In this document: positions 22,499-46,251 of the stretch, in pieces | Layout: each line of letters begins with the position of its first letter | How positions within the stretch are numbered: position 1 is the first letter of the stretch | Assembly: GCF_006345805.1 (NCBI RefSeq) | Contig: NC_043026.1 | Coordinates: 13,681,579-13,745,578, forward strand | Direction: 5' to 3' | Length of the DNA stretch: 64,000 nucleotides | Origin: Octopus sinensis | Taxonomy: Eukaryota | Notes under the pieces: generated by a model | Seen by the model: the letters and a program-made list of their open reading frames with translations, nothing else | Databases searched by the model: none | Told to the model about the DNA's origin: nothing | Translations under genes and position numbers: made by a program

Positions 22499-22540
22499 AT
22501 CCTCTGTGTTTTATCATTCTCTTTGCAGATATCCAATAAG

Positions 22541-22602
22541 ATGGCTCAAGTCCCTGCTAAGATAGTGCTAAAGAGCACTACAAGGATGTCACTGAATGAC
22601 CG
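22541..22602 (+). CDS. CHTOP: CHTOP/FOP first coding exon (MAQVPAKIVLKSTTRMSLND-R); exon begins at 22529
   Basis: Pyrimidine tract and ttgcag acceptor at 22528, ATG at 22541, donor CG|gtgaga at 22603. Peptide closely matches the vertebrate CHTOP N-terminus (APKVVLKSTTKMSLNER). Ends in phase 2. Confidence 0.93.
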
Positions 22603-23004
22603 GTGAGAAAATATTGCCTTCCGTTTGGAAATTGATTTTATTTCAACTTGGCTTTGCTCAGGCAGATCATATATATATATATGTATATATATCTATATAT
22701 ATATATGTATATATATCTATATATAAATATATATATATATTTATAAATATTATATATATATTATAATATTATATATATATATTTGATATATTATAAAAAT
22801 TATATATAATTTTATATATTGTGAATATATTTTATATATACAAATATATATATTTTATATATATATTATAAACATATTATGTATATTTTTATATATATAA
22901 AGGAAGTATGCTTTCAAAATGGTCTGCGAAATAAATATATATATTTGAATAAAGTTAAGTTTATGAAAATGCAACAAAAGTGCTACCCTGATGACTTATT
23001 ATGT

Positions 23005-23475
23005 GGGTTGGTGGCTCTGGCGGCGGCCCCAGCAGCATCGGTTGTGGGACTCGGTCGTCGAGGGGGAGAGGTGAGGGTGTGGGTGAGTGTAGAGGGGGCC
23101 CTGTGCGTGGCGTCTTGACTCGGGCTGTGATGTCGGAGGGGGCCCTGGCCCACTCTTCCGTTGCCTCCTCGTCCATGGTATGATGGGCCGCAATCTCTCA
23201 CCCCCGTGCGTCTCGCTCCGAGTTGTTCATGGCCACGCCCTCTTTTGGGTTTACTCCGCTACACTGCATTCCACCCTCACTCCCTGCCTCCTCACCACCC
23301 TGTGTCTCTTCTCGACTCCCCACTTGCCATTCCTCTCCATTTCAGCATACTCTATCATCACCATATCTCTCTCTCTCTCTCTTTTTCGGCCATCAACATG
23401 TCCTCAAAGACTGATTCTCTCCCTCCTTGTCGATTCTTGTCCACAACTTGCCAGCCAGCCAGCCAACCAACCGAC
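23005..23475 (+). promoter_or_regulatory. Putative structured intronic RNA element (nested imperfect hairpin with G-runs)
   Basis: Several nested complementary helices with G-U pairs (see findings); GC-rich and single-copy in this window. Confidence 0.6.
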
Positions 23476-23749
23476 TAACCAGCCAGCCAGCCAGCCGGCT
23501 GGTGGTGACACACAACAGTTGCCTCTCTTTTCTTTTGTCTTTCTTTCTTTCTTTCTTGCTCTCTTCCTCTGTTGTTGTGTTGCCTCACGTCAGCCCACAG
23601 TCACAGTGGTAGCCACAACTGAGCTTAATTCCAAAAAGGGCAAAAAAAAATAATAAATACCACATAATATCTATACATGTCCATGTATATACACTCTCTC
23701 AATACACACATACACACACACATATATGCATATAAATATATATACATAC

Positions 23750-23799
<50 letters not shown>

Positions 23800-24084
23800 G
23801 TGTATATATATATATATGTATTATATATATATATATATATAATATATTATTATAGATGCATAAATGTATACGTGTGTATAGTTGTGTGCATGCATTGTAT
23901 ACAATTTATGCACATACTGTGGTAAGTGTATACATTCCAGCTCTGATCCTAAAATGCTACAAAGTGGTGTGTAGAATTTACATGTGTATATAAATGTTTG
24001 TATGCATATATATATATATATATATATGTTTATATGGACGCACGTTTCTGGATTAGAGTCATAAGATTAATTTCCTTTATCAAC

Positions 24085-24256
24085 ATAATATTCCGGTAAA
24101 TATATCTATAAATGCTAGGAAATCTTACCTTCTATATTTCCGACCAAGCGACGTGGATATGCTGATTAGCTTCTGTATGTTCCGATGTCGCTTGGTCGGA
24201 AATATAAGAAGGTAAGATTTCCTAGCGTTTCTTAGATTTATTTACCGGAATATTAT
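24085..24256. repeat. Foldback inverted repeat (~60-bp arms)
   Basis: ataatattccggtaaat...ttccgaccaagcgac pairs with gtcgcttggtcggaa...atttaccggaatattat. Confidence 0.85.
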
Positions 24257-25886
24257 ATATGTATATATATATATATTCTTTTATTTGTTTTAGTCATTTG
24301 ACTGCAGCCATCCTGGAGCACAACAATTAGTTGAACAAACCGATCCTAGTACTTATTCTGTCGGAATCTTTTGCTGAACTGCTAAGTTACGGGGGACATA
24401 GTAAACACACCAGCATTGGTTATCAAGCGATGGGGTGGAGGGACAAACACAGACACACAAACATACACATATTTGTATACAACGGTCTTCTTTCAGTTTC
24501 CATCTACCAAATCCATTCACAAGGCTTTGGTCGGCCCAAAGCTATAGCAGAAGACACTTCCCCAAGGTGCCACGCAGTGGGACTGAACCCAAAACCATGT
24601 AGTTAGTAAGCAAGATTCTTACCATGCAGCCACTCATGCACCTTAATATATATATATGTATATATATATTATAGTGTGCTAGCCTGTTGGAATACCCTGG
24701 TCTGTACCTTGCTGTACTCAAGAAGACCCAACCTCCACAGTAGAAGCATGAAGGCTGCATCTCTTGGTGAAGGGGATTGGCCTGCAAAAGTTTTGTGCTG
24801 GTGCCACATGAAAGTGCTTGTGCCAATGGCATGTATATGCGCGCTCGTGCAAGTGCCACTTGAAAAACACCCAGCGCACACTGTAAAGTGGTTGGCATTA
24901 GGAAGGGCATCCAGCTGTAGAAACCAAACCAAATTACCCTAGAATCCAGTGCGGCTCTCTGGTCTGGCTTGCCAGCTCCAACCCATGCCAGCATGGAAAA
25001 ACACATCAAAGGATGATGATGATGATGATTTTACCGCACCAGGCAACTGAGAGCAAAAACAAATTGCAGCATAAAGAAAATAGAACATATTTCTCCCTAG
25101 AAAAGTGCTTGCGAACATCCAGATTAGATATATCAATGAAACAGGCCCCTTTTGCAAAGTCATCCTCTTCCCCAATGCCCGCTCTGATATGGTCTTGGAA
25201 AAGTGACTGCATTCCAGGTTCAGATGGGAGTCCTTAGCTCATGCTGCCTTGCTCTTGATAGCAAGTGCCAATGAGCCATTGGCCCTATGGGGCTGTCCAT
25301 CACCACTTCTGATAAGGCAGCCAAAGGGTTTCAAATCAGGAGGTATTTGGGGCTTAAAAGATCAATGTCTTTGGGGAGTGGTTTACACCTTTTTCTTGCT
25401 GCATGTGTATTGCTCTCTCTTTCTTCCTTTGGACATGTACCTGATGTCCTCATCTGCGATGCATCATACAGTGGACTCTGCCACCTTGAGATTGGAGGCC
25501 CTGCAATATGCTAAATTTTTCAATGTTTGTGTCCAGGGCCTTTTTCCTGGTAAAACTCACCCACTCCGATGACTACAGTCTACTAAAGTTGTGTTCACAA
25601 ATGGCTGGCATACCTGATATATATATATATATATATATATAATTAATTAATAAGGGTGAGAGAATTAGATACTAATTTAATAGTATATTTATTCAACACC
25701 AAGTGGCCTAGTGCTACGAGAAACCTGGATTATTATAATATTTTATAACATATTATAATATTTTTACAAAATAAATATAAGAGAGTGGTAGTCGTACTGG
25801 CTTTCATGGGAAACATATATTTCGTGGTTGAAACCTTTTGGATTAACTGGTGCTAGAGTGAGCAATATAGTGACCACTCTCTTATA

Positions 25887-25919
<33 letters not shown>

Positions 25920-26514
25920 TGCATGCATGTTTATATACACTCTCAGACACCTCAGTAGCCAAGAAAAATATATTACCAACATAATAATATAATGTTCTGT
26001 GCTTGCATGAAAAAGAAAAAAAATAACAATATGATAATATTGAGGATCAAATCCAGAGCTGGGATCGTCAGAAATAAGATTTCTGGTTTTGCTGCAACTC
26101 CCTTACCCTTTGCCATCACAACATTCTCCTTCTCTATCTCTCTGTCATACACACTTTTGTGTAAGCCCATTGCTTTCTTAAATACCATACCTCACTTGAG
26201 AGAGAGTGAGGACGTACGCAGCCTTGATGACGGAACCTAAACCATCCACGTCGATCCTGAATGGCTGCGTCTCTGCCACTCTTGGCTCCTCACCATTTCT
26301 ACTGCCTCTGTTCTTCTGCTGGCACACTGTTCTTTCTTTCTACCCTCGTGTCACACTGTGCCATTTCTGTTTTCACCATACTACTGTTCTACCTTCTTTT
26401 GGACTTTGGTATGACCTCTTCACTACGGTCCCTATTCCGTCCCACACCTTGTCCAATGGGTCTACATCCTGCCACTCCTACTCCCTAATCACTTCCACTC
26501 ACCTGTATCTAGCA

Positions 26515-27090
26515 CTAGCAGTATTGCCTGGCTCAACGGGGGTTTAAGGGAGTCGCTGGCGATGTATCGTGATGATCAAAAATCCGGCCTGCTAAAATTT
26601 GGTTAAAGTGATTCAAACTGCAGACTCAACGCAAAATGGTCACATTTAATTCAAAGCGTTAAAAATGTTATGAAAACAATTGGTATGTGTTCACAAAGTC
26701 CAAACGATTAATACGAAAAAACCCTCCAGGCTACATCCCGAAAATTCATTTCTTTGCCGAATTTCTACAATGTTTACGGCGATTCGTTTTTATATCTTGA
26801 TTTTTTATTTTTTCATGCAATTTACGCATGCTTGCACGCGTGGTGAACACAGTTCACGTCAAACAGCTGACTGAGTAAAGTTCACTATTCAATGCATGGG
26901 ATAAGGCCTAAACAAACACATTATCGATTTTTGCACTTGTGAGATGAATTTCGGAACAGAAATAGCGCAGTTCAATTTCACTCGCCTAAACTTTAAGTGA
27001 CCCATTTTTGATGGTTCTACGATTTGTTGGCTAGATGTGCCAGGAAGTTAAACACAGAGACACACAAGTTGAGTTTTATATATATATAGA
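26515..27090 (-). mobile_element. Non-autonomous Helitron (different internal sequence)
   Basis: Minus strand starts tctatatatataaaac and ends ...gccaggcaatactgCTAG|T. Confidence 0.65.
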
Positions 27091-27199
27091 TGTCTCTAAC
27101 TCTTTTAAGATGGAATTGTGTGGATCATAGAAATTTAGCTGCCGTTTCTAACAGGCTAACCGACTTTATTGAGACTTTCTAGTTGCACTGTACTATATT

Positions 27200-28220
27200 T
27201 AGTTATCGCTGTTGAACCCTAGGTCTGCTCTGATCCAGACGTTTCAGCTGTTACCTTCCTTTATTCAGGCAAAGTCTACCTAAGCCTACATTACTCAATG
27301 TATCCTTCCTTGTTCTTGTTGCTTTGCTCCAGAGGTGACCATCATGTCATTTATGTAGACATAATGTATCTAGGACTACACTATCCATTGTGTCCTTCCT
27401 AGCTCTTGTGGTTTAACCCTAGGTTGGCTCTGTTCCAGCTCATGATCATCCTGGCTTCTATTGAAATGGATTGTGTCTCTGACTGCATTATTTAATGTGC
27501 CATTCCTAGTTTTTGGTCCAGAGGTGACCATCCTGTCATATAGTTTAACATAGTGTATCTAGGACTACATTATCTAATGTGTCATTCCTAGTTCTTGTTT
27601 AGCCACAGGTCAGTCCTGATCCAGCAGACCTATGATCAAAGATATTCCAGCTGTGACCATCCTGTCTTTTATTATTCAGGCATAGTGTATCTAGGAGTAC
27701 ATTAGCTAATGTGTCCTTCCTTGTTGTTGTTTAGCCACAGGTCGGTCCTGATCCAGTAGACCTATGATCGAAGACATTCCAGCTATGACCATCCTGTCTT
27801 TTATTATTCATGCATCGTGTATCTAGGAGTACATTATCTAATGTGTCCTTCCTTGTTGTTTAGCCACAGGTCTGTCCTGATCCAGTAGACCTATGATCAA
27901 AGACATTCCAGCTGTGACCATCCTGTCTTTTATTATTCATGCATCGTGTATCTAGGAGTACATTATCTAATGTGTCCTTCCTTGTTGTTGTTTAACCACA
28001 GGTCGGTCCTGATCCAGCCTGCTCCAAAGTACTACTGGAGGTAACTAGCCTGTCGTTTATTCAGACATAGTGTACCTAAGAGTACATCATCTAACGTGTC
28101 CTTCGAGTCTTGTTTAGCCCCAGGTCAGTCTTGATCCAGGTCCAGCATGATCATAAGTGCCACCAGTGGTGACTGTTCTGTCTTCTATTCTGGCAGTGTG
28201 TGTCAGCTGACACCATTCCT
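27200..28220. repeat. ~120-bp diverged tandem repeat
   Basis: Recurrent gtgtatctaggagtacattatctaatgtgtccttcc and gtcctgatccag. Confidence 0.85.
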
Positions 28221-28654
28221 TCCGTCCTTCCTTGCTGCTATTTCTAGCAAGTCAAAGTGACCCTACAGCTGCTGCCTTGTCGATTCCTCGTTAGGAATTT
28301 AGTTAAAACAAACAAATAATAATAATAATAATATTTAGAGTAAAATAGGCAACAGTCAACCTGAATGGCTGTCTGTTTCTCTCCCAAATTGCTGTTGTGG
28401 ACACCAGTCGTTAGTGAACTAATTAACGAGTAACAAGCATTAGTATGGTACACTGGTAGTTCAGTTAGTTACCAGGTCGGGTGTCAATTGGAGTAATTCT
28501 ACACCTCCCCCGCCATCAAAGCTGGCCTTGGTCTTTTTTTTTTTTGTTTTTGTTATTGTTACATGTTTCAGTCATTTGACTGTGGCCATGCTGGGGCACT
28601 TATGCATGTTTCAGTCATTTGACTGCAGTCGTGTTGGGGCACAGCTTTCACATC

Positions 28655-29192
28655 AGCCCCCCACCACTAGGCTCCAGCCATCAGGCCCCCACAACTAGGC
28701 TCCAGCCACCAGACTCCAGCCATCAGGCCCCCACCACTAGGCTCTGGCCAGCAGGTTCCACCACCAGGCTCCAGCCATCAGGCTCTGGCCAGCAGGTATT
28801 ACAACCAGGCTCCAGTCATCAGGCCCCCACAACAAGGCTCCAGCCAGCAGGTCCCTCCACAAGGCTCCAGCCATCAGGCCCCATCCACCGGCTCCAGCCA
28901 TCAGGCCCCCACCACCAGGCTCCAGCCATCAGGCTCTGGCCAGCAGGTATTACAACCAGGCTCCAGTCATCAGGGCCCCACAACAAGGCTCCAGCCAGCA
29001 GGTCCCTCCACAAGGCTCCAGCCATCAGGCCCCATCCACCGGCTCCAGCCATCAGGTTCTGGCCAGCAGGTATCACTACCAGCTCCCAACCATCAAACCC
29101 CAACCACCAGGCCCCAACAGCAGGTTCCAGCCGCCAGGCTCCGACCATCAGGCCTCATCACCAGGCTCCAGCCATCAGGCCCCCAACCACCA
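28655..29192. repeat. GC-rich minisatellite (aggctccagccatcaggccccca...) with higher-order duplication
   Basis: Seen directly. Confidence 0.9.
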
Positions 29193-30637
29193 GTCTGTGG
29201 ACCATTTCATACTTGGTGATGCAGAAAGAATATAAAAAAGGTTGACGGGGCGGCGGGGACTGCTGCCACTGTTCCAGTTCGTTTCTACTTCCGTATCACT
29301 TTCTCCTCATCATTCATCATTCTCATCTCATCATTCGCCCCCATTTGTGACACCCCTGAAAAGACACCTCAGTTTGGTGCTGAACATAATTAGGGTGTCC
29401 ACCCCACTCTACCATCTATCTCTCTCTTGAAAGAAGGGAGTGTGCAGCATGGAATTTCAAAAGCTCAGGTAGTATATATATATACATCTACATTGCTCTT
29501 ATATTTCATATGTATATAAAATATATATATGTGTATATATATATATATCTTAAGTGCTTATTTGATTGCATTGGAAAAAAAAAGCTTTTATCAAGCAACA
29601 ACATTTTGCCAACAAAATCATAATAATGATAATAATAATAATAATAATAATAATAATTTGCAAATGAAAAACGATGTGGTAAAATAAATAAAAATTTGCA
29701 AAATCCTAAAACCCTCAAAACGGATAAACATATATTTATGCAAATATATGTAATATATTATTATGTTTAATGTGTGTAATGATTAAATGAAACAGCATGT
29801 GGCATAAGAAAAATTTGAAGAGAAAAAAAAAAGAGAATCGAAAAACTTGCTCAAGGCAAGATTCTCATGCTGAGTGGCCTCAACACAACATACACTTTGT
29901 ATTTTTTGCCCTGCATAATTTTTGCTCACGATATTTCTGCTGCTGTTTCCACAACTCCACCCCTGCCTTGCCCCGCCCTTCTCTTCTCTTCTCTCTCTGA
30001 TCCCCATCATTGATGTCTGTCTTAGCTGCAGTGGCCCAGCACAGTTGTGGAACAGTACAGCATCCCCTCATCATCATCATCTTCATCGTCATCTTCATCT
30101 GACCACCTCTTGTAAGACAAAGGTGCAGGCACTTGTTTATCTTCCAAGTGCTCTCTCTCTCCCTCTGTCTCTCTCCGTCTGTCTCTCTCCCTCTGTCTCT
30201 CTCCGTCTCTCTCCCTCTGTCTCTCTCTTTCTCTGCTTTTTGGTCCCTTTTATTCGATCTGGTGTATGTCTCGTTTTTTGTTTGGACTTCAATTGTATTC
30301 CCCCAATAACTGGCTTTATTTACTGGGTCATGGGTCAAGTTTCATCTCAGGTGCTTTCAATTTTGCATCCTTGCTTTGAATCCCCACATTCACTCTTTCC
30401 TCCTTCCCCGCTCTCTCTCTTTCCATTTTCATTTACAATAGAGTGTCTGCTTTTTTATGGACTTATCAGGGTTCACCATTCTGTACCCTTACTTAATCCA
30501 CTTCTATTTGCACATCCACTTCTGCTCCTTCTCTCTCTCTCTGTCACACAGTGTGTGTGTATGTGTTTACATATATAGATGTATATATATATATATACAT
30601 ACATGTGTATATATATATACATGTGTTTATATATATA

Positions 30638-31026
30638 CTAGCAGTATCGCCTGGCGTTGCTCGGGTTTGTTTCGACCCGCTGGAATTGAAATTTTTGAAA
30701 AGTAAAAATTTTGCATTATGTAGCTTGTTATTCTCTTCAAGTGAACATTTTTCTGGTTGAAATACACCAAAAAGTGGCGACACAGCAGTGAAAAAAATCG
30801 TAAAAAATAGGGATTTTCATAGAAAAAAAGTACCTTTTTGATGTAAATAATTTTTGGTGTTAACATGGTCCGATTTGAATTTTATCTTCTACGGAAGGAA
30901 GATCAACCCTTCTATCATACTCTCAATTTTGGTCAACCTGTGCCACAGGGTCTCGGAGGAGATAGTGTTAATTGAAGGCTACCAAACCTGGCGCACACAG
31001 ACAACTTCAGCTTTATATAGAGAGAG
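30638..31026 (-). mobile_element. Non-autonomous Helitron
   Basis: Minus strand tctctatataaagctgaagttg... to cccgagcaacgccaggcgatactgCTAG|T; termini shared with 3238-3735. Confidence 0.78.
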
Positions 31027-31512
31027 ATAACACACACACATCTATGTATGTATGTATGTATATATGTACATCTGTCCACTTCTTGCCATATTTTTATCCT
31101 TCACTTCCTACACACTCTCACACACAGACACACACACACCTTAGCTTACTATTTTCTCTCAACAATTGACACTGTCATATATGTATATGTTTGCGTGTCT
31201 ATGTGTGTAAAGAGAAAGTGGGAGAAAGTGTGGTAATAGGCGGAGTAAAGCCTTTGAAGTGAGAGAGGGAAATCGTAAAATATTGAGTTTTTTCCAAATT
31301 TTTGCTTAATTGGGGGTCAAATTGAAAGAAAGTTATATGCCATGACTGAATCAAATCTACTTCGAAAAATCATAGGTAAATTCTAATTGAAGAAATTCTA
31401 TATCGTAGAATTGTTTTAAAAAGGAACATGGGAACAGGCAGAGAAAATCTGCCTTTTATCATAAGAGATATATATACATGTGTATATATATATACATACA
31501 TGTGTATATATA

Positions 31513-31557
<45 letters not shown>

Positions 31558-31600
31558 ATATATATTTAAAAAAGGAGATGTGGAACACGAGTTGTGATAG

Positions 31601-31907
31601 ATAAAAAAAGGAAATGAAGAAAATGCTGACAAAATAATTTAAGTAAGGGAGAGTGTATTTAATTAGGTGAAAGTTCTTTTTACCGGTTGCGCATTTGTTA
31701 TGCTTATCAAAAGATATTTTTTTAAGTGAGATAGAGTTCCTTTCTGATAGATTTTTTTATCAGAAAGGAACTCTATCTCACTTAAAAAAATATCTTTTTG
31801 ATAAGCATAACAAATGCGCAACCGGTAAAAAGAACTTTCACCTAATTAAATACACTCTCCCTTACTTAAATTATTTTGTCAGCTTTTTCTTCATTTCCTT
31901 TTTTTAT
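31601..31907. repeat. Near-perfect palindrome, ~149-bp arms, 8-nt loop
   Basis: 31601-31749 is the reverse complement of 31758-31907 with only a couple of differences. Confidence 0.95.
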
Positions 31908-32271
31908 ATATATATAGATATGTGCATATATTTATGTTTGTGTGTATGTCTACATGTATGTGTGTATATGTATATGCACACAATCACAAATCTGAAACAC
32001 TAATCACGCATCAACATACCCCCAAAGTGCTCATTCTTTCTGTTCGTTTCTTCTTTCACCCAACCCACCCCTCACCTTTTTCCTTTTCTATGTCGCATCT
32101 TATTTACTTTGTCTTATTCTCCTAACTATTTTGAGATACGACCTGAGCGTTTCGTTGGTTTTATTATCACAGACTTACCTAGATATGTTTCAGGGAAATT
32201 TATACAAGTTATGTTGTATCCATAGATAGATTTGTGGGGCTTCTAGTGACTCCCTGTTAATCGTCCAATGT

Positions 32272-32912
32272 ATAGCAGCACTTGGCCCTTCAGCACATAG
32301 CAGCCCAGTTGGTCCTTCAGTATATAACTACCTCAGTTGGTATTTCAGCATATAACAACCCCAGTTTGTCCTTCAGCATAGAGCAGCCCCAGTTGGTCCT
32401 TCAGCATATAGCAACCCCAATCAGTTCTTCAGCATATAGCAGTCCCAGTTGGTCCTTCAGCATATAGCAGCCCCATTTGGTCCTTCAGCATATAGCAACC
32501 CAATCAGTTCTTCAGCATATAGCAACCCCAATTGGTCCTTCAGCATATAGCAACCCCAATTGGTCCTTCAGCATATAGCAACCCAATCTGCTCTTCAGCA
32601 TATAGCAACCCCAATTGGTCCTTCAGCATATAGCAACCCCAATTGGTCCTTCAGCATATAGCAACCCCAATTGGTCCTTCAGCATATAGCAACCCAATCA
32701 GTTCTTCAGCATGTAGCAAACCCAATTGATCCTTCGGTGCATAGCAACCCCAATCGGTCCTTCAGCATATAGCAACCCAATCAGTTCTTCAGCGTATAGC
32801 AGCCCCAGTTGGTCCTTCAGCATATAGCAACCCAATCAGTTCTTCAGCATATAGCAACCCCAGTTGGTCTTTCAGCATACAGTAACCCCTGTCAGCCCTA
32901 AGCATATAGCAC
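32272..32912. repeat. ~28-bp minisatellite (cagcatatagcaaccccaattggtcctt)n
   Basis: Seen directly. Confidence 0.93.
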
Positions 32913-34268
32913 ACCTAGTAATCTCAGTTGGTCTGAGCAGTTCCCAAAACTCTGTTGGTCCTTCAATATAACAACCTTTCGTTGCTCCAGAGTATACCAA
33001 ATTACCATAACCAATACTGATTTATTTCTGGTAATTCTACAGTGGCAAGCTAGCGGAATCATTACCATACTGGAAAAAAATGCTCAGAAGCATTTCTCTG
33101 GCTCCTATGTTCTTAAGTTCAAATGCCACCGTGGTCAACTTTTGCTTTTCATCCTGGGGTCAATGTAATCAACTTTTGCTTTTCATCCTGGGGTCAATGT
33201 AATCAACTTTCCCCTTAAATTTGAAGCCTTTTTGCTTATAATAGAATTATTAATGCTAAATCTTATTTAATTTTCGTAAAGTATACTAGCCATCTCAATA
33301 TAGCTAACCACTAAGGGTGGGTGTTACTGTAGCTTGTAGCCCCAAGAGATCATCGTCTCTAGCTGGCTTTAGGCACACTTTCTGTGCACTTATGGTATTT
33401 GCAAAGGGAGGTCATTCCTATCTCGTCAACCTAAGTGATACGCTCGAACTGTAGTTTCGAGGTTGTTGCCTCTTGTCAACGTACGGCAATCACCGGTTTT
33501 ACATCTCGTTCAGAGATTTATTATTGCTTATTTTATTTTATTTTGAGAAAACTTCGAAGCCATTCAATCTCTTTCTTTCTTGCTGTTATCATCATCCCAT
33601 CATCGCATCATCATCATCACTACTTTCATTTCTCTTGTCATCATTATAATCCTTGTCATTATCATCAGTTCTTTTACTCTCCCTCATCAGCTCCTTAATC
33701 ATCATTTCTCCGACATCGTCGTCACATCACTTTGTTGAGACGAAAGGATTTTTTCTTCTTTTTTTCCTTCTTGTTTGAAACTAATTGAAACGAGCAAAAA
33801 AAAAAAACCCCAAAAAAAAGACAAAGTGAAAAACACAACCATCATGACGATTGATATGATTAATAATAATAATAATAATAATATTAATAATAATGTTGGC
33901 AAAATAAGCATATGAAATATATAAATATATATTTGCAAATACATAAGGGCAAAATGAAAAATATTAAAGAAAATAAACAAAGGCCTAAGTTTATGATTAT
34001 TTTGGGCTCATGTAATATGTTGTTGTGATTTTATGGTTGTGTGTGCCACAAGCCACATTTAACGACCACAATGTGTCGCCGTGGCTCTCCTTTCCCCCTC
34101 TCTCTTTTTCTCTCACTCTCCGCTCCCCCTTTCTCTCTCTCTCTTTCTGTTACTCCCCCGGCCCCATGCCCCGATCCCTTGCCGTGGCCCCGTGCCCCCC
34201 TCTCCGTCCCCCCCTCAGTTCGTAAGTGATGAATATACTTTACCGCCCTCCTTTCCCCCCACATGAAG

Positions 34269-34422
34269 CTTCACGAACATACAGAAGAGTCGTCCACCCG
34301 TGACGGTCCAGAACATTCGTGCCAAGATGGCGGCACAGCAGCAGGCGTCGGTGCGGAACCGTAGGCTAGCCCAGCAGATGGCTAACCGACCGAGCGTGAT
34401 CGCGGCCCTGAAGATCAAGAGG
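34269..34422 (+). CDS. CHTOP: CHTOP coding exon 2 ([52 protein letters not shown])
   Basis: Acceptor gaag|C completes the CG-C Arg codon; donor AGG|gtaaga. Matches CHTOP 'FTN...NIRA...[23 protein letters not shown]'. Confidence 0.95.
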
Positions 34423-34504
34423 GTAAGACTGCATTTTTTCATCTCCTTTGGCTCTGTCTTACTGGCTATCTACCCCTGTTTGTCTGTGTCTATCTTTTAT
34501 CCTC

Positions 34505-35052
34505 TTGTCTGTTTGTCTATCCATCTGTCTATCTGTGTTTATCTCTCTATTTATCCGTCTGTCTATCTGTCCATCTGTCTATCTATCTATCTATCCATCT
34601 GTCTATCTATCTATCCATCTGTCTGTCTGTCTATCTATCCTTCTATCTATCTGTCTGTCTATCCATCTGTCTGTCTGTCTATCTATCTATCCATCTATCC
34701 GTCTGTCTATCTATCCATCTGTCTATCTATCTGTCTGTCTATCTATCTGTCTGTCTATCTATCTGTCCGTCTATCTATCTGTCCATCTGTCTATCTATCT
34801 GTCTGTCTGTCTATCTATCTATCCATCTGTCTATCTATCTATCCATCTGTCTATCTATCTATCCATCTGTCTATCCGTCTGTCTATCTATTTGTCTGTCT
34901 ATCTATCCATCTGTCTATCTATCCATCTGTCTATCTATCTATCTATCCATCCATCCGTCTGTCTATCTATTTGTCTGTCTATCTATCCATCTGTCTATCT
35001 ATCCATCTATCTATCTATCCATCCATCCGTCCGTCTGTCTATCTGTCTGTCT
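34505..35052. repeat. (TCTA/TCTG/TCCA)n microsatellite
   Basis: Seen directly. Confidence 0.95.
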
Positions 35053-36935: not shown

Positions 36936-39900
36936 GAGTGCATTACCTTGTAGCTTCAAGTGATTATTTGGTTTTAGAAGAATATTGTAGGGTAGGTGTG
37001 AGGGGCCAAATCTGGTCTGTGTGAGCATATCACAAGTGGAATACTGTGGCCGGATATGCCTGGTTTAAATGCTAAAGAGTTTATCATACATTACTTTGTA
37101 GCTTCAAGTGAGTGTTTGTTTTTAGAAGACTATTGTAGGGTTGGTGTGAGAGGCTGGATCTGCCCAGTCTTAACATGAAACTGGTAGAATGTTTGGGCCA
37201 TTTCTATGGCTGTTTCAAATGCTAAAGGGTTAAAAACTTATGGGAAAGGAATTTCAGGGTTGCATATTTAGAGAGGAAGGACTAGTTTGAGTGGGAATGT
37301 GTGTTTTTAGTGTATGATGCAGCGGGAGGAGGTGTGACTCAATGAGGAGCCAAGGTGTGGCAATTATGGCCCGTGGGGGAGGGCGCTGTGGTGAACATAG
37401 TCGAGGTGAATTTTAGGGGCTACAATAGAAAAAGTATGGTTGTAGTCTTGGGTCAAGTGGGTAAAGAGTTTGCTTCACAATCATGAGGTCCCAGTTTCAA
37501 GTCTGCTGTGGGGCACGTTGAGTAAGTGTCTTTTACCATGGCCTCAGTGTGACCCCCGAGACGTGTCTCGTGTCCCCTTAAACTTCACCCCTACCATCTT
37601 TGATGTCTTGGAATAATTTTTTGGCAGATAAAAAAAAAATTGAAGTCTTCAGTTCTTTTTTATAGTTTCAGCATTTTTATTAATTCTTTGATTAACATTA
37701 ATGACTTTTACTTCTCGTTATGGTTACGATTTCAAGTTGATTAGTAATTATTTTCAGCTCACTACTACCTTGAGTGCAAGGGTACCGCGTGCACTTGAGT
37801 ATATGTTTTCCATGCAGAAGGCACCCCCCAGTAAAAAAAAAACAATTTTCAATATTTGTCACATGTATATATATATATATATATATACATATATACATGT
37901 ATATGTATGTATATGAATACATATATATATATATTCTTTTATTCTTTTACTGGTTTCAGTCATTGGACTACGGCCATGCTGGGGCACCGCCTTCAAGGGT
38001 TTTAGCTGATCATATTGACCCCAGTAACTATCTCAGTCAGGTATTTATTCATAATATGTGTACGTTTACGTCTAGAGTTGCATATGAGAAGAGTACTCAG
38101 TACATGTAGTAGAGTATATATTTTGTGTCAAGTCAACCGTTCATTCACTCCTTGGCTACTCGGAGTATTTATTCTTTTGCATGAAAACTCTCATTCAGGC
38201 TCTGTATGTTTGTATTTATTTATTTATTTATATCTTTTATTCTTTTGTTCCTTTTTTTCACTTGTTTCAGTCATTAGACTGGTGCCATGCTGGAGCACCG
38301 CCTTGAACTTTTAGTCGGACGAATCCACCCCCACCCCCCCAGTACATATTTTTTAAAGCCTGGTACTTATTCTATCGGTTTCTTTTGGAGAACTGCTAAG
38401 TTACGAAGAATGTAACAGACTGTCTAGGGGACACAACTCGACCTTTTTAACTCTCAAAAAAAAATTTACCGTAATTTTTTTTCCATTTTTTGGCTATAAC
38501 TCTCTAAAAATGCTTTATAGTTATTTCCCTTACAAACCCGAGCAACGCCGGGCGATACTGCTAATATACATATATGTATGTATGACTGGCTTCTTTCAGT
38601 TTACCAAGTCCCCTCACAAGGCTTTGGTTGGCCTGAGACAATAGTAGAAGAAACTTGCCCAAGGTGCCACGCAGTGGGACTGAACCCAGAACCATATGGT
38701 TAAGAAGCAAGCTTTTTACAACACAGCCATACCTGCGCCTATATATCATTTCTCTTTTACTTGTCCTTGGACTGCAGCTATGCTGGGGCACTACCTTAAA
38801 GGGTGTGGTCAAAACAAACTGACCCTAGTATTTATTTATTTTTTAAAGTCTGGTACTTGTTCTGTAGGACTTGTTCGCCGAACCACTTAGCTATGGGGAC
38901 ACAGACCAACATCGGCTGTTGAGCAGTGGAAGGAACATTCACACACACACAGCGGGTTTCCATGAAGCACTGGTCAACCTGGAGCCATTATAGAAGGCAC
39001 TTGAGGCTAAGGTGCCATGCAGTGGAACAGAACCCAGAACCACATGGCTGGAAAGCAAGCTTCTGAACCGCACAGCCATACCTGTGCCTATAACGAATAT
39101 TAGTGGAAGCAGTATGATGTAAAAGACATTTTGATATATTTTACAATCCTAAAGTGGCGACATCGGTGTTCAGCATGAGGCTCTCAAGGAAGAAGTAGGG
39201 TGACATGACATCAGGAAGTTTCGTATCCCGGAAACCAGGGCTTGTCTCCCGGTGGTTGGTATGAATAGAGTTAGTTGTATAGAATTTGATATTCTGAATC
39301 TTCTGTTGGTTTATGATGGCATCCCTGTTCACATGATGAGATCATCATCGTTTAACGTCCATTTTCCATGCTAGCTTGGGTTGGCCGATTTTGACTGAGG
39401 GCTGGCGAACCAGATGGTTGCACCAGGCTCCAGTCTTGATCTGGCAGAGTTTCTACAGCTGGATGCCCTTCCTAACGCCAACCACTCCAACAGTATAGTG
39501 GGTGCTTTTTACGTGCCACCAGCACGGGGGCCAGTCAGGCGGTACTGGCAATGACCTCGCTCGAATCTTTTTACATGTGCCAGTGAAGCGGCGTTGGTAA
39601 CGATCATGCTCGAATGGTGCCCTTTTACGTGCCACGGGTACGGAAGCCAGTTGGCTGCTCTGGCAACGATCACGCTCGGATGGTGCTCTTGGCACCCTAC
39701 TATCACAGGTATGAGTGCCAGTAAGGCGACGCTGGTAACGATCATACTCGAATAGCCACTCTGTCAACGATCACACTTGTATGGTGCTCTTTGCAACCCG
39801 CTAGCACAGATGCCAGTCATCGAAATGATTTTGATTTTCATTTCACTTGCCTCAACAGGTCTTCGCAAGCAAAGTTTAGTGACCAAAGAAGGAAAAGGTA

Positions 39901-40871: not shown

Positions 40872-41946
40872 ATTGGAACATGGTGAGCTGGCAGAATCGT
40901 TAGCACGCCGGGCGGAATGCGTAGCCGTTACGTTCTGAGTTCAAATTCCGCCGAGGTCGACTTTGCATTTCATCCTTTCGGGGTCAATAAATTAAGTACC
41001 AGTTACGCACTGGGGTTGATGTAATCGACTTAATCTCCTTGTCTGTCCCCTCTGTGTTTAGCCCCTTGTGGGTAGTAAAGAAATAGGTATTGGAACATGG
41101 TGAGCTGGCAGAAACGTTAGCACGCCGGGCGAAATGTGTAGCCGTATTTTGTCTGCCGTTACGTTCTGAGTTCAAATTCCGCTGAGGTCGACTTTGCCTT
41201 TCATCCTTTCGGGGTCAATAAATTAAGTACCTATTTCTTTATTACCCACAAGGGGCTAAACAAGGACAGATATAGGTATAAAGTCGATTACATCGACCCC
41301 CCAGTATGTAACTGGTACTTAATTTATCGACCCCGAGAGGATGAAAGGCAAAGTCGACCTCGGCGGAATTTGAACTCACAACGTAACGACAGACGAAATA
41401 CGGCTACGCATTCCGCCCGCCGTGCTAACGTTTCTGCCAGCTCGCTGCCTTCCAATAAATTAAGTACCAGTTACGCACTGGGGTCGATGTAATCGACTTA
41501 ATCCGTGTGTCTGTCCTTGTTTGTCCCCTCTGTGTTTAGCCCCTTGTGGGTAGTAAAGAAATAGGTATTTCGTCTGCTGTTACATTCTGAGTTCAAATTC
41601 AGTCGAAGTTGACTTTGCCTTTCATCCTTTCGGGGTTGATTAAATAAGTACCAGTTACGCACTGGGGTCGATGTAATCGACTTAATACCTATGTCTGTCC
41701 TTGTTTGTTCCCTCTGTGTTTAGCCCCTTGTGGGTAGTAAAGAAATAGGTATTTCGTTTGCCGTGACGTTCTGAGTTCAAATTCCGCCGGGGTCGACTTT
41801 GCCATTCATCCTTTCGGGGTCGATAAATTAAGTACCAGTTACGCACTGGGGTCGATGTAATCGGCTTAATCCTTTGTCTGTCCTTGTTTGTCCCCTCTGT
41901 GTTTAGCCCCTTGTGGGTAGTAAAGAAATAGGTATTGGAACATGGA
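40872..41946. mobile_element. Nested/tandem cluster of SINE family C
   Basis: TSD-like attggaacatgg occurs three times; internal inverted copy flanked by duplicated caataaattaagtacc. Confidence 0.85.
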
Positions 41947-45995: not shown

Positions 45996-46251
45996 CGCAG
46001 TCTGAAGCAACGGTTGGGCAAAAGCAACGTGAAGTCACGACTGAGCCTGTCGGTGATGAGGGGGCGTGGCGGGCGCGGGCGGTCAAGAGGCGGGCGCTTC
46101 AGGGGGCGAGGACTGAACCCAGGTATGCGGGGCATGTCAGGACGGGGCCGGGGCTCCAACCTGTCTCGACAGCACAGTGCACTCTCGCTGGGGACAAGCG
46201 GCCCTGGTGGTATGGAGGATGGACGCAATATGCCAATGTTACGTGGACGAG
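45996..46251 (+). CDS. CHTOP: CHTOP coding exon 3 (RSLKQRLGKSNVKSRL...RGRGGRGRSRGGRFRGRG...MLRGR-G), start of the GAR/RGG domain
   Basis: tttacag acceptor in phase 0; 'SLKQRLGKSN' is as in vertebrate CHTOP; donor G|gtaatg in phase 1. Confidence 0.92.

What the first reader, a model, noticed from the sequence alone, without database searches (positions are those of the whole stretch)
23005..23475. Large nested RNA structure ~400 nt into the first coding intron of CHTOP
Seen: a GC-rich island, single-copy in the window, whose complementary segments are strictly nested. From outside in: ggttggtggctctggc (~23006-23022) with gccag..agccaaccaacc (~23454-23472, imperfect); gttgtgg 23041-47 with ccacaac 23441-47; gtcgagggggaga 23057-69 with tctcttctcgac 23305-16; gtgagggtg-t-gggtg-agtgtag 23071-92 with ctacact-g-cattc-caccctcac 23259-80; gcgtggc 23105-11 with gccacgc 23232-38; gactcgg 23117-23 with ccgagtt 23218-24; ggccca 23147-52 with tgggcc 23184-89. 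Many departures from DNA symmetry are G-U pairs on the + strand, as expected for selection on RNA rather than a DNA foldback. Known: human CHTOP autoregulates by retaining the intron after its ATG exon followed by NMD, with hnRNP H (a G-run binder) involved. Inference: this is a mollusc cis-element of such a circuit and possibly an ADAR substrate.
Basis: partly seen in the sequence, partly recalled or inferred. Interest (0 to 1): 0.75.

Follow-up and report, generated by a model that had tools for sequence, protein, structure and literature searches.

The report
Folded rod in octopus CHTOP intron
A single-copy, G+C-rich stretch in the second intron of an octopus gene for the RNA-export protein CHTOP is predicted to fold into a long hairpin that likely helps keep the intron unspliced, as in the self-limiting loop known for human CHTOP, and the same intron has the same weak splice end in many other animals.

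Summary
The structure is real as a prediction. The + strand folds at z -3.6, the - strand at -0.6. The arms match each other better than block shuffles (z 3.0-5.5), and the core is single-copy in the genome.

The G-U argument fails: arm composition alone gives that bias. No A-to-G change shows in the rod.

The gene is CHTOP. RNA-derived contigs splice exon 2 to exon 3 and also cover this intron. The intron's position and its rare AAG acceptor recur in 8 of 9 other animal loci. Nine of those 15 loci carry a short, covarying stem-loop in this intron; octopus lacks it and has the rod, which buries two strong U1-binding sites and many G-runs.

Best reading (0.5): a retention element of the CHTOP feedback loop. 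Covariation of the rod itself could not be tested, and a neutral old inverted repeat remains possible (0.3). The scan noted a similar rod before in another octopus genome.

The parts
22529..22602 (+). CHTOP exon with the conserved ATG (22541); ends in a split Arg codon (phase 2)
   Evidence: translation, tblastn, its last bases joined to exon 3 in contigs of 4 of 4 runs
22603..34268 (+). 11,666-nt intron; in-frame TGA at 22604-22606 if retained; AAG acceptor
   Evidence: sequence, junction; same position in 9 of 9 other loci with this exon, AAG in 8 of 9 with the acceptor
22980..22996 (+).
   Evidence: pair probabilities 0.65-1.0; a repeat at about 28.9 kb pairs with it slightly better as a bare duplex
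23006..23070 (+). 5' arms of the outer predicted helices (partners 23417-23472)
   Evidence: probabilities 0.73-0.99
23071..23280 (+). core rod, 71% of bases paired; most stable helix 23071-92/23259-80; G-run-rich 5' arm
   Evidence: single copy; unchanged in contigs of X5 and X7, three variants in X13
23068..23090 (+). two donor-like sites (GT at 23071 and 23083) buried in the most stable helix
   Evidence: U1 duplex -10.2 and -12.3 kcal/mol, ranks 4 and 1 of 650 GT sites in the intron; real donor -8.3; unpaired probability about 0
23281..23416 (+). largely unpaired pyrimidine-rich loop with an acceptor-like site at 23345 and a length-variable CT repeat
23417..23500 (+). 3' arms of the outer helices; 23445-23500 is a CCAG/CCAA simple repeat that varies in the relative
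23520..23616 (+). long pyrimidine tract, tandem AGs, and the 3' arm (23599-23616) of the outermost helix; with the donor-like GT at 23922 a candidate cryptic exon
   Evidence: sequence, fold, U1 duplex -11.0 at 23922; no splice seen in the listed rows
34269..34422 (+). CHTOP exon 3

Best explanation
This single-copy intronic stretch is predicted to fold as RNA into a long rod and likely acts as the retention element of a CHTOP feedback loop. Shown: the gene, the intron position, the in-frame stop at the intron's first codon, the weak AAG acceptor, the complementarity, single copy, and contigs of RNA runs that cover the intron. Inferred by analogy with human CHTOP: the rod folds soon after the donor is transcribed; CHTOP's conserved N-terminal domain binds it; splicing of this weak-ended intron stalls; the unspliced RNA is detained or destroyed by NMD. 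Also inferred: folding hides the G-runs (hnRNP H/F-type sites, which promote excision in human) and two strong U1 sites, so the folded and open states would set the level of retention.
For: Fold and complementarity above shuffles, on the sense strand only. Single copy. Third-lowest + strand energy of the 234 tiles of 264 nt with at least 40% G+C. Human element: predicted stem-loops in the 5' part of the same intron, bound by domain N1 and needed for retention (PMC5175361); that domain is strongly conserved in octopus. Same intron position in 9 of 9 and AAG acceptor in 8 of 9 other animal loci, some of them close kin. A covarying stem-loop occurs 1-3 times in this intron in 9 of 15 loci, so structure in this intron is a recurring theme. 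Contigs of 3 of 4 RNA runs (three studies) cover the element, and 3 of 4 cover the intron's 3' end; two run 28 bases into exon 3, short of the tool's 31-letter rule for a bridge. 9 runs of 3 or more G in 200 nt against 0.9 per 200 nt in the rest of the intron.
Against: No covariation test of the rod: only near-identical relatives were reachable. No significant sequence match to the other animals' introns (best E 0.81 in the element), and their stem-loop motif is absent from the octopus window. Folding energy is not above fine block shuffles; the G-U bias is compositional. Two GGT(A/G)AG sites are only marginal against shuffles (P 0.04-0.09). One X13 variant (23269) breaks a G-U pair of the best helix. 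Invariance in the relative has little power, since 33900-34090 is just as unchanged. Intron cover in contigs can be pre-mRNA or DNA.
Confidence: 0.5

Rival explanations
1. A neutral relic: an old inverted duplication or the last recognisable copy of a foldback element, with a G-rich and a C/T-rich arm, that folds well without a selected role.
For: Arms 73 of 101 aligned positions Watson-Crick with 24 gap columns, as in a decayed inverted repeat; G-U share as expected from composition; energy within fine block shuffles; two other tiles of the window fold far better and equally on both strands; no homologue outside near-identical relatives.
Against: Single copy in the genome; sits where the human element sits; 62% G+C and CpG o/e 0.59 against 39% and 0.40 in the rest of the intron; sense-strand fold only.
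Confidence: 0.3
2. The fold governs cryptic splice sites rather than binding CHTOP: it hides donor-like sites at 23071/23083 and the AGs at 23592-23606, and opening it lets a decoy or poison exon (about 23594-23921) engage the intron ends, as decoy exons do in human SF3B1.
For: Three of the four best U1 sites among 650 GTs lie at 23071, 23083 and 23922; long pyrimidine tract with tandem AGs, two of them paired in the outer helix; decoy model for large retained introns (PMC6097662, abstract). The motif of the other animals often carries a donor-like GTAAG in its loop.
Against: No joint or listed loose end at these sites; X5's contig runs through 23345 and 23600 unbroken (26 loose ends not shown). 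All loose ends listed at the exon 3 acceptor come from exon 2. G-rich arms make such sites by chance.
Confidence: 0.13
3. An intron-encoded non-coding RNA (long box C/D scaRNA-like RNA or a microRNA precursor).
For: A C-box-like TGATGA at 22989 and a CTGA at 23619 flank the domain.
Against: No Rfam match at gathering score in the window, and only chance-level matches in the region; best contiguous pairing of the three CTGA-upstream stretches with this genome's U1 and U2 is 5-7 nt (other snRNAs and rRNA not tested); contigs run past both would-be ends; the apex has only a 7-bp stem.
Confidence: 0.04
4. Its main role is as an ADAR substrate whose editing changes splicing.
For: A 21-bp helix with single-base bulges; heavy editing in coleoids (PMC10278661, search listing).
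Against: No A>G in 23071-23280 in contigs of X5, X7, X13; the A>G rows at 23466 and 23477 lie in the repeat tail and have no matched DNA.
Confidence: 0.03

Closest known systems
Human CHTOP intron-2 element Int2-1-2-2 (PMC5175361; read: abstract, nine passages, Methods, part 2 of 3 of Results; supplement unreadable)
   Same: Same gene, same intron after the ATG exon, stop codon at the intron's 5' end, predicted structure a few hundred bases into the intron, G-rich sequence, conserved N-terminal domain.
   Different: The human element is 142 nt with two short stem-loops holding conserved repeats, in an intron of about 1.6 kb; here one 210-nt rod within a 640-nt domain in an 11.7-kb intron. The human sequence could not be compared. 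The paper calls CHTOP conserved in vertebrates and reports no yeast, worm or fly orthologue.
Decoy-exon intron retention (SF3B1 intron 4 and others; PMC6097662, abstract only)
   Same: Large intron of an RNA-processing gene with strong cryptic splice sites inside.
   Different: No junction to the cryptic sites is seen here, and the donor-like sites are predicted to be paired.
Short stem-loop in CHTOP intron 2 of other invertebrates (found here, loci L024-L027, L030-L034; no paper on it in searches)
   Same: Same intron, sense strand, structure, donor-like word in many copies.
   Different: About 55 nt, 1-3 copies, internal loop with TAAG; not detected in octopus.

Membership tests
CHTOP intron-2 autoregulatory element | lies in the 5' part of the intron after the CHTOP ATG exon | tested here: met
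CHTOP intron-2 autoregulatory element | stop codon at the 5' end of the retained intron | tested here: met
   TGA at 22604-22606; a GTRA donor in phase 2 gives this by itself, so it is weak evidence
CHTOP intron-2 autoregulatory element | predicted stem-loop structure | tested here: met
CHTOP intron-2 autoregulatory element | intron retained in mature RNA | tested here: inconclusive
   contigs cover both ends of the intron, but pre-mRNA or DNA is not excluded
CHTOP intron-2 autoregulatory element | sequence and structure conserved across the clade | tested here: inconclusive
   only near-identical relatives available; no match to distant loci
CHTOP intron-2 autoregulatory element | bound by domain N1; needed for CHTOP-induced retention; NMD-sensitive | not testable with these tools
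   needs binding assay, minigene and NMD inhibition
Short invertebrate CHTOP-intron stem-loop (model R1) | outer stem, internal loop with TAAG, inner CTG/CAG stem | tested here: not met
   best window hit 9.1 bits, E 1.9, none in the element; rough 3' half-site score at most 10.7 in the intron against 13.4-20.9 in training
Transposable element / MITE | multiple genomic copies | tested here: not met
   1 match, itself; the search scores only its best candidates and skips very common words
Box C/D snoRNA or scaRNA | Rfam match, or a guide of 10 nt or more upstream of a D box | tested here: not met
   (U1 and U2 only)
ADAR substrate | A-to-G changes in RNA against matched DNA | tested here: inconclusive
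   none in the rod in contigs of 3 runs; contigs drop rare variants

The most novel reading that the evidence does not exclude
CHTOP's intron-retention feedback is ancient among animals and rests on RNA structure in the same intron, but the structure turns over: many invertebrates use a repeated 55-nt stem-loop that often displays a donor-like word, while octopus replaced it with a 640-nt folded domain that hides decoy U1 sites and G-runs. The short motif would be the natural RNA ligand of CHTOP's N-terminal domain.
Probability: 0.25. Interest if true: 0.7.

Novelty: new variant of a known kind. Interest (0 to 1): 0.42.

Why it matters
CHTOP feedback is described in human cells only, as far as searches reach. 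A shared intron position and rare acceptor, plus structured elements in that intron in several invertebrates, would push the circuit far back in animal evolution. The short covarying motif gives a defined candidate ligand for CHTOP's N-terminal domain. The octopus rod alone is a modest extension of a known mechanism until it is shown to be conserved or functional.

Tried and rejected
G-U excess as a sign of selection on RNA: rejected, it equals the shuffle expectation. Rfam: nothing above chance. Pfam on three single exons: 0 families; identity rests on homologues. G-quadruplex: one loose pattern at 23062, not chosen by the folding model. Pairing of the G-rich arm with the intron's C-rich 3' end: -87 against -112 kcal/mol for the local arm, and weaker than several unrelated tiles. 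Homology of the octopus outer junction (23604) or of 34216-34228 with the short motif: low scores. A 12-nt identity with L022 at 23602-23613 has E 9.9: lead only. No RNA holder was on record as RNA in the run search; all are guesses. The start of intron 3 (34425-34510) had no cover in 4 of 4 runs, and X15 laid nothing on the rod: a hole in contigs proves nothing, and contig depths were not used to estimate retention. No silent control stretch and no DNA run were laid. Sequence look-ups among earlier findings returned nothing, even for exon 3, so they say nothing on how distant the other octopus genome is. The short-motif model could not be run over the whole genome, so its presence elsewhere in octopus is open. 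The human element's sequence (Figure S6 and Table S1 of PMC5175361) could not be seen; it may match the short motif.

Full report
Setting. The window holds a CHTOP gene on the + strand. The exon 22529-22602 carries the conserved ATG. Exon 34269-34422 is identical to octopus and argonaut CHTOP records and 64-92% identical to other invertebrate ones (27 hits of 50 candidates). Contigs of 4 of 4 runs laid join exon 2 to exon 3, which fixes an 11,666-nt intron and shows that these runs hold spliced RNA. The element starts about 400 nt after the donor, behind an AT microsatellite.

Observation. The fold is beyond chance on the sense strand: z -3.6 against -0.6, and -3.7 for 22960-23660 (20 shuffles). 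Six of the seven named pairings are in the ensemble at 0.8-1.0; one is replaced. The robust part is the rod 23071-23280. A further helix, 22980-96 with 23599-616, closes a 640-nt domain. Arm-to-arm complementarity beats block shuffles down to 12-nt blocks (8 of 1000), while folding energy does not beat 20- or 40-nt block shuffles. So much of the stability comes from a G-rich arm facing a C/T-rich arm, but the register is more exact than composition gives. The G-U excess is purely compositional. The core is single-copy and matches no Rfam family.

RNA. Contigs of X5, X7 and X13 (a near-identical relative, three studies) cover the element; X15 does not. X5 and X7 show no change in 23030-23345; X13 shows three variants, two at unpaired bases and one in a G-U pair. 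This has little power, because other intron parts are as unchanged. Contigs of X5, X7 and X15 cover the intron's 3' end, two of them 28 bases into exon 3. This fits retention but also pre-mRNA or DNA. No A>G appears in the rod.

Other animals. One metagenome scan gave 15 loci from 134 candidate stretches. The intron is at the same codon in 9 of 9 loci with exon 2, and the acceptor is AAG in 8 of 9 with that boundary, as in the window. That AAG acceptors are rare is recalled, not measured here. Several loci are close kin, so independent cases are fewer. None resembles the octopus rod in sequence. Nine loci carry a short stem-loop with two-sided changes in its outer stem; three loci with the intron (L022, L029, L035) lack it. 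A model of it finds nothing in the window.

Mechanism. In human cells CHTOP binds predicted stem-loops in the 5' part of this intron through domain N1, holds the intron, and the RNA goes to NMD; hnRNP H opposes this (PMC5175361: abstract, passages, Methods and part of Results read; supplement not readable). The octopus gene keeps the domain, the intron, the immediate stop and a weak acceptor, and has a structured single-copy island at the matching place. The rod's 5' arm holds 9 G-runs and the first- and fourth-best U1 sites of 650 GTs in the intron, both paired; their number is only marginal against shuffles (P 0.04-0.09). I commit to a retention element at 0.5. Binding, retention and decay are inferred. 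The neutral relic (0.3) is the serious rival because covariation could not be tested; a decoy-exon role (0.13; PMC6097662, abstract) overlaps with the best reading.

Novelty. No paper on an invertebrate CHTOP intron element came up (open-access library only). Earlier scan notes report the same intron and a similar rod in another octopus genome; they are unchecked, and how distant that genome is remains unknown. Verdict: a new variant of a known kind, interest 0.42. The short covarying motif in other animals is the more promising lead.

Noticed in passing
L024:3-67, L025:5270-5437, L026:661-715, L027:1492-1546, L030:5202-5256, L031:416-470 and 1005-1062, L032:983-1122, L033:3310-3449, L034:650-924: A roughly 55-nt stem-loop (outer stem, internal loop with TAAG, inner CTG/CAG stem) occurs 1-3 times on the sense strand of the same CHTOP intron in 9 of 15 animal loci. 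6 of 7 outer pairs change on both sides; covariation 0.554 against 0.195 in shuffles, 0 of 500. I drew the structure from these sequences; the 3 hits outside the 12 training copies are near-identical to training copies.
   Followed up: partly
window 37960-38040 (+): An 81-nt in-frame cassette exon between exon 3 and the exon at 45996; seen as a loose end in X5 and probably in the mixed rows of the other three runs, present in one database isoform, and similar to many other places in the window, so probably repeat-derived.
   Followed up: partly
window 34216-34268 (+): 50 nt before the AAG acceptor lies a CAG after a pyrimidine run, followed three bases later by GTAAGT; its use as acceptor would bring an in-frame TAA. 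No use seen in contigs; the pyrimidine run varies between runs.
   Followed up: partly
L022:152-2281: The record keeps this intron while all later coding sequence is uninterrupted: either an intron-retaining transcript or a gene that lost its later introns. Its donor is predicted to be paired in a hairpin.
   Followed up: partly
L029:2813-3325: The one locus with a canonical CAG acceptor also has a short intron and lacks the stem-loop motif: possible loss of the control.
   Followed up: no
L030:4673-4970, L031:105-305, L035:690-890: Strong local folds (z -4 to -6, 15 shuffles per tile) near the 5' end of the intron in three other animals.
   Followed up: no
window about 11043-11306 and 41007-41534: Tiles that fold far better than the element and equally on both strands, as near-perfect DNA inverted repeats do.
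   Followed up: no
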